A stretch of DNA of 64,000 bases from Escherichia coli O127:H6 str. E2348/69. Lineage in GTDB: Bacteria > Pseudomonadota > Gammaproteobacteria > Enterobacterales > Enterobacteriaceae. The stretch is from NCBI RefSeq assembly GCF_000026545.1, contig NC_011601.1. One strand, written 5' to 3'. Made by a program: the position numbers. Below, in pieces: positions 15,201 through 18,200 of this stretch. How positions within the stretch are numbered: the first letter of the stretch is position 1; each line of letters begins with the position of its first letter.

Positions 15201-18200
15201 AGTACGCCTGCGTCTTTGCCGTTCTCCGTTACCGTCAGGCTGTTTTGCAGTTGATTGATCATCCCCAGCGTGGAGTATTTGGTGACGGTAAACTCACTGC
15301 CCGGGCGGGCGTGAATGGCTTCAACCATCAGCGTGACGCCTTCTTTTTTCAGCATCTGGCCCGCTTGCCCACGGGCGCTAAAGCCGCCATCACTGCTCAG
15401 GGTGTAGTTTTTATCGTCCAGCACATTAAGCGTAAACACCTGATCCGCCATCTCTTTCGGGCGGTTAAAGGTGGTCACTTTCACCGTTTCGTTCTGACGT
15501 CCCATCAGGCGATCCCAGCCCGCACCGAAAATCGGGAACGTGTTTTTGCTCACCGCAATATCGAGGTCGAGATCGTCCACCGTTTTACCAAGCACCAGGC
15601 GCGAACGAATCAACTGGATCTCGGCGTCCGATGCAGGCGGTTTGTTGGCTAACGCCGATCCGATATCCTGCACTAACGAATTGCCGCTGCTTTGCTCGAT
15701 TTGTACCAGTGCGTCGGCACTATAAATCGGCGTGGCGAAGAAGGTGTAAACCACGGCACAAAGGGCGAATACAGCGGTGATGCCAATCACCCACCAGCGC
15801 GCTTCAATGACGGTGCCGACCAGGCGACCAATATCGATTTCATCACTGCCCGTTACCGGAGCGGCATGTTGTTTTACTTTTTCTGTCATTCTTATACCTG
15901 CTCTGCGTTCAATGCCTGCGCCCACTGGCGGGCAGACCGTTCAAGTAATGTGTACACCGCTGCAAACGTTTCCCGGCTTTTGCGATACGGATCGGGGATT
16001 TCACATTCGTTATCCCAGTGACCAAACAGCATCACTTTGCCGCGCATCTCAGGTGCCATCTCGCATAAGCGTTCGATATGGCGCTTTTCCATGGTCAAAA
16101 TCAGGTCATAGTTGCGACACAGGCGGCGGCTGATTTGCCGTGCACAGTGACCTTCCAGAGACAGTTGATGTTCTGCGGCGACGCTGATAGCGGTAGGATC
16201 AGCGCCCTTACCGACCAGCGCGCCGAGTCCAGCGGACTCCACTTTCAGTTCCGGGTGATAACGTTGCAGTAAGCGTTCCGCCGTCGGGGAACGGCAAATA
16301 TTGCCGACACAGACAACTAAGATGTTGTTAAACATGACGATTACCAGTTATGAATGTCGCTGGCTGTATCCGTCATGTAACGGACACCGCTAATAGTTGG
16401 CAGCAACTGATTGATCAGACGGTTCCAGCGGGAAACCGGGGCGGTGGTGACATACACCACGTCATAAGGTTGCAGGCGGAATTCTGTCGCCATCACCAGC
16501 GACGTCGCATCGGACATATCCAGCTGGTAGATATTGGCAATCTTGCCGTTACGCCCGCCCTCGCCTTTCAGCGGACGAATGACAAAGATGCCGCTGGCGT
16601 TGGAGGTGGTCATGTCGATACCTTCAGCATTACCCAGGGCTTCAGTCAGGGTCATGCCGCTAAAGTCCATTTTCAGGGTGCTCTGTTTCTTCACTTCACC
16701 CATCACAAACACTTTCAGATCATCATTACGCGGCACGTAGAGAATATCGCCGGGGTAAAGCAGTCGGTTCTGATTGAGGTCGCCGTTTTGCATCAGCGCC
16801 TGCAAAGAAATGCGTTCTTCACGACCATTGTGTGTTAGCACCACGTTGCGCCAGTCAGCGGTGTCGGTCAGGCCACCTGCGGCGTTGATGGCGTCGAGAA
16901 TGGTCAGTGGTACGTTGGTGATCGCCTGTTGACCGGATTTATTCACCTGACCGGAGATATAGGCTTTTTGTGAGCGGAAGGCGGCGATATTAACGTCCAC
17001 CTGCGGGTCAGCGATGTACGTCGCTAAGCGCCCGGTAATATCACTGCGGATTTCAGCGAGCGTTTTCCCGACTACGTGAACCTTGCCGATATACGGGTAA
17101 AACATAGTGCCGTCAGGCTGTACCCAGTTGCCGGTGTCGCTGGAGCTGCGGTACTGACCGGCTGGCGTGGTGAGTTCCGGGTGATCCCAGACGGTGACAT
17201 TAAGAACGTCCCCCGGCCCGACGCGATACTGGTAATTCGCGATCTCACTTTCCAACGTCATATTGGGGCGCGCTACATTCGGGCGTGGGCGTAATTGGTC
17301 AATCAGGCGCGGGGTCAGCGGATAAACATTCACCATTTTGTCGAGATCGAAATCAGCGTCCTGCTGTTTGATGACGTCTTTGCCCATCGTCGACATATTG
17401 CTGCCCGGAAGTACTGTGCAACCGCTTATCAAGGTTACTGACACCAATAATGGCATCAATTTCATTTTGGATTTCATCATTGTTTATTTATCACTTTGGC
17501 AGAGTAATTATCCTGTGCACTATTAATAGCAATGTCGCCATGCACATTTACCTTGCAGTTAATTGAATAAAAATTTAACTGGCATCAGTCCTAAAAAAAT
17601 TGATTTCATCCGCAGGCTATTGACAGAATAATTCAGACTGGTCTTTCAGGCATCCAGACACGCTACCGCCCCTGGCTTTTTAGCTACCAATACACTGATT
17701 TAGCTTAATTTTTCAAACCCTCTCTGCATACAATCGTTGATGAGAAAGGGTTATTGCGGAAATTAACTTCCGAATATAAGGTGACATTATGGTAATTGAA
17801 TATTGGCTCTCCAATAATGCAGGAGGAAGTGTTACAGCTAACGGAATAGCAGGCAAGGTAACAATTCGGCAATTGGCTATTTTTAAGAATTATATTAAGT
17901 GTCATTCAATATGGTTTTTAGGAGTTTCTTTAGGTTGACAATATTTAATATTGCGTCTCCATATGCGATATTTCTTAAATAATGTTTTATTATTACCACT
18001 TTTAATTCAGGGCTAATGTGAGGTTATTACCCTCAAATAATATGAGATAAATAGTGCTGCAACATTGCATTTTTGCCCCGATTTATCCATGATCGAATTG
18101 TGACATTTGTCATACAACGAATAGGTTTTGTACTTACTATGGAATGGATTGCCGATCCGTCTATCTGGGCCGGGTTAATCACGCTGATTGTGATCGAACT

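What the first reader, a model, noticed from the sequence alone, without database searches (positions are those of the whole stretch)
17481..18138. wza/yegH divergent control region: ops present, RcsAB-box-like sequence upstream
The ops element (GGCGGTAGCGTG) sits at 17659..17670 on the wza strand. A sequence resembling the RcsAB box (taagaattatatta, 17885..17898) lies further upstream. These fit the RcsAB- and RfaH-dependent control of the colanic acid operon, but the RcsAB match is from memory of a loose consensus.
Basis: partly seen in the sequence, partly recalled or inferred. Interest (0 to 1): 0.25.

Follow-up and report, generated by a model that had tools for sequence, protein, structure and literature searches.

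The report
Colanic acid operon promoter and leader

Summary
The window is E. coli, 100% identical to E2348/69 over 17481-18138. This stretch is the wza/yegH intergenic region.

**ops: confirmed.** GGCGGTAGCGTG lies at 17659-17670 on the wza strand. It is the 3' end of a full JUMPstart element (Rfam RF01707, 57.3 bits against a cut-off of 35). It sits 186-199 nt upstream of wza in 75 of 79 enterobacterial loci. The identical site binds RfaH in published ChIP.

**RcsAB-like sequence: real, but qualified.** It matches the consensus TaAGaatatTCctA at 10 of 14 positions and lacks the core C11. A match of that quality is no better than chance in this AT-rich DNA.

Conservation is what supports it. 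The box is nearly invariant in 75 aligned sequences (the window plus 74 loci from other species). It keeps a fixed 30-31 bp distance to a deeply conserved sigma-70 promoter (TTGCCT-17-TGnAACACT, predicted start about 17820). It shares the 12-mer TTAATATAATTC with the rcsA promoter region.

It is one of three conserved Rcs-type boxes:
- 17964-17977, the only one with all core consensus bases
- 17919-17932

I could not verify which box was biochemically mapped, because the primary papers are not held.

Verdict: known biology, low interest.

The parts
16341..17480 (-). wza, the first gene of the colanic acid (cps/wca) operon
   Evidence: 379-aa ORF. It aligns to K-12 b2062 wza and to E2348/69 wza.
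17481..17517 (-). Highly conserved last 37 nt of the wza leader, up to the start codon (GCACAGGATAATTACTCTGCCAAAGTGATAAATAAACA)
   Evidence: About 90-100% column identity in 80 sequences. Its function was not tested; it presumably includes the ribosome-binding region.
17570..17633 (-). Two further conserved leader blocks downstream of ops: AATTATTCTGTCAATAGCC, and TTTTTAGGACTGATGCCAGTTAAATTT, which contains an RcsB-box-like TAGGACTGATGCCA
   Evidence: for conservation, for the motif scan. Function unknown.
17659..17670 (-). ops element GGCGGTAGCGTG on the non-template (sense) strand, 190 nt upstream of the wza ATG and about 150 nt downstream of the predicted transcription start
   Evidence: The exact 12-mer is present in 62 of 79 loci, and a copy with at most one mismatch in 75 of 79, at 186-199 nt from the ATG. 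RfaH ChIP signal at the identical site in CFT073 delta-hns delta-stpA (PMC9765446).
17659..17697 (-). JUMPstart element, a 39-nt hairpin plus ops
   Evidence: Rfam RF01707, 57.3 bits (gathering score 35), full-length match to model positions 1-38. Identical in K-12.
17786..17813 (-). Escherichia-specific promoter-like site (TTGGAG/TGGAGA, 16-17 nt spacer, CATAAT)
   Evidence: This was the only hit of the consensus scan, and that scan found fewer hits than in shuffled sequence. Its columns are not conserved across genera. It is at most a secondary promoter.
17828..17856 (-). Predicted core sigma-70 promoter: -35 TTGCCT (17856..17851), 17-nt spacer, extended TG (17836..17835), -10 AACACT (17833..17828; AACAAT in most genera). 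The predicted start is about 17820-17821, giving a 5' UTR of about 340 nt.
   Evidence: The TTGCCT positions are conserved in 70-75 of 75 sequences, the TG in 75 of 75, and the key -10 positions A2 and T6 in 74 of 75 each. The distance to the upstream boxes is fixed. The start site is inferred, not measured.
17880..17899 (-). The 14-mer is 17884..17897 (TAATATAATTCTTA on the wza strand, TAAGAATTATATTA on the + strand). Its centre is about -70.5 from the predicted start.
   Evidence: The distance to the -35 block is 30-31 bp in 72 of 72 loci. It shares the 12-mer TTAATATAATTC with the K-12 rcsA upstream region, where RcsA/B 'box1' is reported.
17915..17941 (-). Box B: TTGTCAAC-C-TAAAGAAACTCCTAAAAA. 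The 14-mer is 17919..17932. Its centre is about -105.5.
   Evidence: TCCTA is conserved in 69-75 of 75 sequences and the flanking TGTCAA in 74-75 of 75. Franconibacter helveticus has a canonical TGAGGATAATCCTAAAA at this position. The K-12 yjbE upstream region has the same TCCTAAAA right half.
17964..17977 (-). Box A: TAAGAAATATCGCA. Its centre is about -150.5. It is the only site in the region with all core consensus bases (T1, A3, G4, T10, C11, A14).
   Evidence: About 60 of 75 sequences carry TA(G/A)GA(A/T)AT(A/T)TCGCA, and the G/A variation falls at the position where the RcsB box allows G/A (PMC7913699). Atlantibacter and L032 carry a near-consensus TGAGGATATTCCTA about 9 bp further upstream instead. 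It resembles rcsA box2, TAAGGATTATCCGA.
18082..18116 (+). Conserved block just upstream of the yegH ATG, with the imperfect palindrome TGTGACA-TT-TGTCATA. It is probably a yegH operator or leader and not part of cps control.
   Evidence: 63 loci. No Rfam family matches it.

Best explanation
The 658-bp wza/yegH spacer is the known control region of the colanic acid operon. It works in two stages.

(1) Initiation. A weak sigma-70 promoter that is conserved across Enterobacteriaceae fires at about 17820. It reads TTGCCT, 17 nt, TG-n-AACACT. It lies in AT-rich DNA (30-40% GC) that H-NS silences. The promoter is preceded by three Rcs-type boxes in the same orientation, each with an RcsB-type TC half-site on the promoter side. 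Their spacing is rigid: A, 45 bp, B, 34-35 bp, C, 31 bp, then the -35 element. It combines a perfect RcsB half-site (TTCTTA followed by AAAA) with an AT-rich half (TTAATATA) that also occurs at the RcsA/RcsB 'box1' region of the rcsA promoter. RcsA-RcsB~P bound to these boxes most likely recruits RNA polymerase and displaces H-NS.

(2) Elongation. About 150 nt into the roughly 340-nt leader, polymerase transcribes the JUMPstart element. The ops sequence on the non-template strand recruits RfaH, which lets transcription run through the roughly 20-kb operon.

Shown here: the sequences, their coordinates, the JUMPstart model match, cross-genus conservation and spacing. Shown in the literature: RfaH ChIP at this ops site, H-NS occupancy, and RcsAB dependence of the wza promoter. 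Inferred: the start site, that all three boxes bind Rcs proteins, and the role of box C.
For: ops and JUMPstart. RfaH ChIP and H-NS silencing of wza in CFT073: PMC9765446.

Promoter and boxes: conservation profile of the window plus 74 orthologous loci. Fixed spacing of the boxes and promoter, against a variable promoter-to-ops distance. None of the 13 differences between K-12 and the window falls in boxes A-C, the core promoter or JUMPstart.

Rcs character of the boxes: the consensus and the assignment of the right half to RcsB (PMC4325325). The RcsB box TN(G/A)GAN4TC(T/C)NA (PMC7913699). Canonical boxes appear at the A and B positions in some lineages. The 12-mer shared with rcsA upstream is reached by only 4.3% of shuffles. 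Two RcsA/B boxes are reported at rcsA (PMC11879457). The same TCCTAAAA half-site lies upstream of yjbE.

The wza promoter is described as carrying -10 and -35 elements and an RcsAB box (PMC2478693). GC content is 0.305-0.40 across the spacer (200-bp windows starting 17400-18000), against 0.44-0.59 in the adjoining coding sequence.
Against: Box C lacks the core C11 (or G4, on the other strand) in all 75 sequences, so it never forms a full RcsAB box.

The motif match alone is at chance level, and the shared 12-mer is only modestly significant.

No binding data for any of the three boxes could be retrieved.

The transcription start is inferred from conservation only. An E. coli-specific promoter-like site (17813..17786) exists downstream and could be the mapped one.

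RegulonDB, as cited in PMC9764084, lists a sigma-24 promoter as well as a sigma-70 one, and I could not find a sigma-24 promoter.

Conservation could reflect binding of another protein.
Confidence: 0.7

Rival explanations
1. The biochemically mapped, functionally dominant RcsAB box is box A (17964..17977) or box B (17919..17932). The reader's box C is not an RcsAB box proper but an accessory element, for example a lone RcsB half-site, an RcsA-only site or a polymerase alpha-CTD/UP-like A-tract.
For: Box A is the only site with all core consensus bases. The two published RcsAB boxes I could verify both carry those core bases: Klebsiella galF TAAGATTATTCTCA (PMC3438125; seen in L086), and TAAGGATTATCCGA at -264 from the rcsA ATG in K-12. 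That the latter is the published E. coli rcsA box is recalled from memory; the corresponding Salmonella site, TAAGGTTTATCCGA at -264, is listed in PMC7913699. Canonical boxes replace A and B in some lineages, but never C. Box B sits at about -105; my recollection, which I could not verify, is that reviews place the cps RcsAB box about 100 bp upstream of the start.
Against: Boxes C and B are more strongly conserved than A: A is absent or unrecognisable in about 15 of 75 sequences. Box C has the tightest spacing to the promoter. It also shares a 12-mer with the rcsA region said to bind RcsA/B.
Confidence: 0.5
2. Box C is conserved because another DNA-binding protein uses it, for example an H-NS nucleation site or a nucleoid or other regulator recognising the palindrome TTAATATTAA. 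Its resemblance to the RcsAB box would then be coincidental.
For: In most genera the box reads TTAATATTAATCTTAAAA, and its left part is a perfect 10-bp AT palindrome. The region is AT-rich and H-NS-bound (PMC9765446). The consensus match is at chance level.
Against: The invariant part includes TCTTA followed by AAAA. This is the same RcsB-type half-site with an A-tract seen in box B, rcsA box2 and the yjbE boxes. Its orientation and phasing match boxes A and B.
Confidence: 0.2
3. The operative promoter is the E. coli-specific TTGGAG/TTGGAA, 17 nt, CATAAT site (start about 17778). Box C would then lie at about -112 and be 'the' upstream RcsAB box, and the conserved block D would be something else.
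For: It was the only hit of the sigma-70 consensus scan. K-12 has an even better -35 element, TTGGAA.
Against: The site is not conserved outside Escherichia, although Rcs control of colanic acid is. Block D, by contrast, shows the conservation pattern expected of a -35, extended -10 and -10 arrangement, at a fixed distance from the boxes. The scan found fewer promoter-like hits than in shuffled sequence.
Confidence: 0.15

Closest known systems
JUMPstart/ops element of RfaH-dependent operons (Rfam RF01707; rfa, rfb, hly, kps, tra and cps leaders)
   Same: Full 39-nt JUMPstart with the exact 12-nt ops sequence on the non-template strand of a long 5' leader, ahead of a roughly 20-kb polysaccharide operon. 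RfaH ChIP is published for this very site.
   Different: Nothing of substance. Three related species (L036, L037, L040) have lost it from the wza leader.
RcsAB box, consensus TaAGaatatTCctA (Wehland & Bernhard 2000, as quoted in PMC4325325)
   Same: A 14-bp pseudo-palindrome upstream of an RcsA/RcsB-activated exopolysaccharide promoter. The RcsB-type half-site TCTTA faces the promoter. The match is 10 of 14.
   Different: Box A (17964..17977) fits the family definition better. Binding was not tested here.
RcsA/RcsB 'box1' and 'box2' upstream of E. coli rcsA (PMC11879457)
   Same: There is more than one box. A TTAATATAATTC-type box (12 nt identical to box C) occurs together with a canonical TAAG..TC box, TAAGGATTATCCGA, which resembles box A.
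   Different: The order of the two box types relative to the gene is reversed, and the distance to the promoter is larger (about 170 bp). The exact extent of box1 is not given in the text I could read.
Klebsiella-type galF P1 RcsAB box, TAAGATTATTCTCA (PMC3438125), and the K-12 yjbE upstream boxes
   Same: Same box family. Box C on the wza strand matches the galF box at 11 of 14 positions. The yjbE boxes share the TCCTAAAA right half with box B.
   Different: The galF P1 region (L086) is not homologous to the wza promoter, so it cannot serve as an orthologous map.

Membership tests
ops/JUMPstart (RfaH-dependent antitermination signal) | 12-nt ops consensus GGCGGTAGnnTG, with the 8-nt core GGCGGTAG | tested here: met
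   Exact GGCGGTAGCGTG at 17659..17670 (-), a single copy in the window.
ops/JUMPstart (RfaH-dependent antitermination signal) | Embedded in the 39-nt JUMPstart element with its short hairpin | tested here: met
   RF01707 at 57.3 bits against a gathering score of 35, full length.
ops/JUMPstart (RfaH-dependent antitermination signal) | On the non-template strand of a transcribed, untranslated leader upstream of a long operon | tested here: met
   It is on the wza sense strand, 190 nt upstream of the ATG and about 150 nt downstream of the conserved promoter. The position is conserved in 75 of 79 loci. The promoter position is inferred.
ops/JUMPstart (RfaH-dependent antitermination signal) | Recruits RfaH to the elongation complex | not testable with these tools
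   The literature reports an RfaH ChIP signal at the identical sequence, at -190 from wza, in CFT073 delta-hns delta-stpA (PMC9765446).
   The match is 10 of 14, with 4 of the 5 core bases in either orientation. The missing core base is absent in all 75 sequences. Box A at 17964..17977 meets this criterion.
   38% of dinucleotide shuffles of the region give at least as many sites with 10 of 14 matches.
   It is nearly invariant in 75 sequences and lies a fixed 30-31 bp from the conserved -35 block.
   TCTTA at 17888..17884 on the wza strand, conserved in 71-75 of 75 sequences. Half-site definition from PMC7913699 and PMC4325325.
   The primary mapping papers are not held, and no held paper prints the wza site.

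The most novel reading that the evidence does not exclude
Colanic acid promoter activation may depend not on a single RcsAB box but on a rigidly spaced array of three boxes, conserved across genera: A, 45 bp, B, 34-35 bp, C, 31 bp, then the -35 element. The promoter-proximal box would belong to a distinct class, an RcsB half-site plus TTAATAT(A/T)A without the canonical G4, that is shared with the rcsA promoter. This would imply a higher-order RcsA/RcsB nucleoprotein complex or a separate RcsA-specific half-site.
Probability: 0.3. Interest if true: 0.35.

Novelty: already known. Interest (0 to 1): 0.12.

Why it matters
It matters little beyond annotation. RcsAB- and RfaH-dependent control of the colanic acid operon has been textbook knowledge since the 1990s, and this window simply carries the standard E. 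coli version of it.

The useful by-products are practical:
- The only promoter the sigma-70 consensus scan reports here is probably not the conserved one.
- The PGAP 'hypothetical protein' annotated in this spacer is probably spurious.
- Anyone engineering colanic acid expression or Rcs reporters should be aware of three conserved upstream boxes and several conserved leader blocks, not a single box.

Tried and rejected
**Primary papers.** I tried to read Stout 1996, Wehland & Bernhard 2000, Ebel & Trempy 1999 and Pannen 2016. None is held.

**Literature searches.** Full-text searches for the three box sequences, in both orientations, gave no relevant paper. Searches on 'wza promoter', amsG plus RcsAB, and BglJ plus wza gave no site coordinates.

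**Sigma-24 promoter.** PMC9764084 cites RegulonDB for one sigma-70 and one sigma-24 promoter. A scan for GGAACTT, N15-17, TCnnA with up to 2 mismatches found nothing on either strand. I therefore do not adopt a sigma-E promoter.

**Older motif.** TRVGAAWAWTSYDA, recalled from memory, gives 61 matches in the window against 52 expected, so it is uninformative.

**Protein searches.** I searched with Wza to reach Erwinia amsH/amsG, and with RcsA to reach rcsA promoters of other genera. Both returned only near-identical proteins (85% identity or more for Wza, E. coli/Shigella only for RcsA) and were dead ends.

**Klebsiella-type galF P1.** I located this region in E. coli 26561. It contains the published box TAAGATTATTCTCA but is not homologous to the wza promoter, so it cannot identify the orthologous box.

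**Other checks.** A 'distant' BLAST for second copies of the promoter in E. coli genomes showed one copy per genome. The only other Rfam hit in the region (ARRPOF, 15 bits against 127) is noise.
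Full report
**Identity of the region.** The 658 bp at 17481..18138 are 100% identical to E. coli E2348/69 and 98% identical to K-12 (13 substitutions, no indels). The flanks are wza (16341..17480, minus strand) and yegH (ATG at 18139, plus strand). 4818 of 5426 complete E. coli genomes carry at least 80% of this spacer. K-12 coordinates equal window coordinates plus 2119763.

**ops and JUMPstart.** It is the 3' end of a full-length JUMPstart match (RF01707, 17659..17697, 57.3 bits against a gathering score of 35).

I fetched 80 wza loci from other enterobacterial species; 79 of them have upstream sequence. Of those, 75 carry ops with at most one mismatch, and 62 carry the exact 12-mer. 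The element lies 186-199 nt upstream of the wza start codon. Three loci (L036, L037, L040) have lost it but keep the promoter.

Hustmyer et al. (PMC9765446) list this same 12-mer at -190 from wza in CFT073. They report RfaH ChIP signal there in a delta-hns delta-stpA strain, with H-NS covering the promoter in the wild type. This half of the finding is correct and already published.

**The RcsAB-like sequence.** The published consensus is TaAGaatatTCctA, with five most conserved bases and the right half assigned to RcsB (PMC4325325). The structure-derived RcsB box is TN(G/A)GAN4TC(T/C)NA (PMC7913699).

The candidate matches 10 of 14 positions in either orientation but misses core C11, or G4 when read on the other strand. 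Such a match is not significant here. The region contains 2 sites with at least 10 of 14 matches, dinucleotide shuffles average 1.28, and 38% of shuffles reach 2 or more.

The scan also turned up two rivals on the wza strand. TAAGAAATATCGCA at 17964..17977 matches 9 of 14 positions and has all core bases. TAAAGAAACTCCTA at 17919..17932 matches 10 of 14.

**Cross-genus conservation.** I aligned the 430 nt upstream of ops from the window and 74 other species. Four blocks stand out against a poorly conserved background.

- **Block D (17857..17827)** reads CTTGCCTG...TTAGCTG(C/T)AACA(A/C)TT. TTGCCT is conserved in 70-75 of 75 sequences. TG at 17836-17835 is conserved in 75 of 75. The A and T that would be positions 2 and 6 of a -10 hexamer are each conserved in 74 of 75. 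This is the pattern expected of a sigma-70 promoter: -35 TTGCCT, a 17-nt spacer, an extended TG, and -10 AACACT (AACAAT in most genera). It predicts a start near G17820 and a leader of about 340 nt. The start site is inferred and was not measured.
- **The consensus-scan promoter** is TGGAGA/CATAAT at 17813..17786. It is not conserved outside Escherichia.
It is nearly invariant.
- **Block B (17941..17915)** has an invariant TGTCAA and an invariant TCCTAAAA.
- **Block A (17977..17964)** is present as TA(G/A)GA(A/T)AT(A/T)TCGCA in about 60 of 75 sequences.

**Spacing.** The box spacing is rigid:
- C to the -35 block: 30-31 bp in 72 of 72 loci
- B to C: 34-35 bp in 68 of 72 loci
- A to B: 44-46 bp in 42 of the 43 loci with a recognisable A

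The promoter-to-ops distance, by contrast, varies from 172 to 210 bp. With +1 at 17820, the box centres are about -70.5 (C), -105.5 (B) and -150.5 (A).

**Are the boxes Rcs sites?** All three carry a TC half-site on the promoter side, in the same orientation. B and C follow it with an A-tract. So do rcsA box2 (TAAGGATTATCCGAAAAA) and two boxes upstream of yjbE (TGAGGTTAATCCTAAAA and CAATTATCCTAAAA).

Lineage turnover also points to Rcs sites. Atlantibacter and L032 have a near-consensus TGAGGATATTCCTA about 9 bp upstream of the A position. Franconibacter helveticus has a canonical TGAGGATAATCCTAAAA at the B position, while its C box is degraded.

Box C never acquires the canonical G4 in any species. 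It is always one RcsB-type half-site plus TTAATAT(A/T)A. That left half, together with the TTC, is a 12-mer identical to the K-12 rcsA upstream sequence ATTAATATAATTCCGTA. Only 4.3% of shuffles share a word that long. PMC11879457 reports that RcsA/RcsB binds two boxes at rcsA, and that box1 overlaps TGAATTGCCATTAATATA.

I therefore regard box C as a real operator element that very probably belongs to the Rcs system. By the family's own definition it is not a full RcsAB box.

**Which box was mapped?** I could not establish this. The primary papers are not held, and no held paper prints the wza site.

Two published RcsAB boxes that I could check both carry all the core bases. One is the Klebsiella galF box TAAGATTATTCTCA (PMC3438125; found in L086). 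The other is TAAGGATTATCCGA, 264 nt upstream of the rcsA ATG in K-12. That this is the published E. coli rcsA box is from my memory; the corresponding Salmonella site is listed at -264 in PMC7913699. If the capitals in the consensus mean invariance, that favours box A as the published wza site.

Conservation and promoter proximity favour B and C. My estimate is A about 45-50%, C about 25-30% and B about 20-25%.

**Mechanism.** Initiation comes from a weak, H-NS-silenced promoter (GC content 0.305-0.40 across the spacer, against 0.44-0.59 in the adjoining coding sequence). It is activated by RcsA-RcsB~P bound to the upstream box array. RfaH then loads at ops about 150 nt into the leader and carries polymerase through the long operon. 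The sequences, the conservation and the JUMPstart match are shown here. RfaH binding, H-NS occupancy and RcsAB dependence come from the literature. The start site and the occupancy of each box are inferred.

**Verdict.** The specific box chosen is one of three and is not the best consensus match. Nothing here is new biology.

Noticed in passing
window 17789..17938 (+): RefSeq/PGAP annotates a 49-aa 'hypothetical protein' (WP_162829205.1) here in E2348/69 and in many other E. coli genomes. It lies on the strand opposite the wza promoter, over boxes B and C and the core promoter. Its start-codon columns are not conserved across genera, so it is probably a spurious call.
   Followed up: partly
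window 18046..18116 (+): The 60-90 nt upstream of the yegH start are strongly conserved in 63 enterobacterial loci: GAGATAAAT, ATTGCATTT and TTTATCCATGATCGAATTGTGACATTTGTCATACAAC, the last containing the imperfect palindrome TGTGACA-TT-TGTCATA. No Rfam family matches. This may be a yegH operator or leader element.
   Followed up: partly
window 17481..17633 (-): The wza leader downstream of ops is far more conserved than the leader upstream of JUMPstart. It has three blocks. One of them, TTTTTAGGACTGATGCCAGTTAAATTT, contains an RcsB-box-like TAGGACTGATGCCA (one core mismatch) in inverted orientation. The last 37 nt before the ATG are nearly invariant. Function unknown.
   Followed up: partly
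L036, L037 (Escherichia sp. ESNIH1), L040 (Pseudescherichia vulneris), about 330 nt upstream of wza: These three species keep the conserved promoter block but have no ops or JUMPstart in the wza leader; a different sequence sits in its place. This suggests their colanic acid operon has become independent of RfaH.
   Followed up: no
L084 (E. coli KE51, NZ_CP141080.1) 2501..3620: An IS1 sits 86 bp from yegH, and the sequence then resumes in a truncated glycosyltransferase gene followed by wcaM. The wza promoter and most of the colanic acid cluster are deleted in this urinary isolate.
   Followed up: no
L087 (K-12 yjbE upstream) 842..858 and 978..995: There are two Rcs-type boxes, TGAGGTTAATCCTAAAA and TTCCAATTATCCTAAAA, upstream of the RcsA-dependent yjbEFGH operon. 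They have the same TCCTAAAA right half as wza box B.
   Followed up: partly
L024, L025 (Atlantibacter), L032, L015 (Franconibacter helveticus): Box turnover between lineages. A near-consensus TGAGGATATTCCTA replaces box A about one helical turn further upstream in three loci. A canonical TGAGGATAATCCTAAAA occupies the box B position in F. helveticus, where box C is degraded.
   Followed up: partly
window 17813..17786 (-) compared with K-12: The Escherichia-specific promoter-like site has TTGGAG in this strain and the better -35 element TTGGAA in K-12 (G to A at window 17809). This is a possible strain difference in basal, Rcs-independent wza transcription.
   Followed up: no
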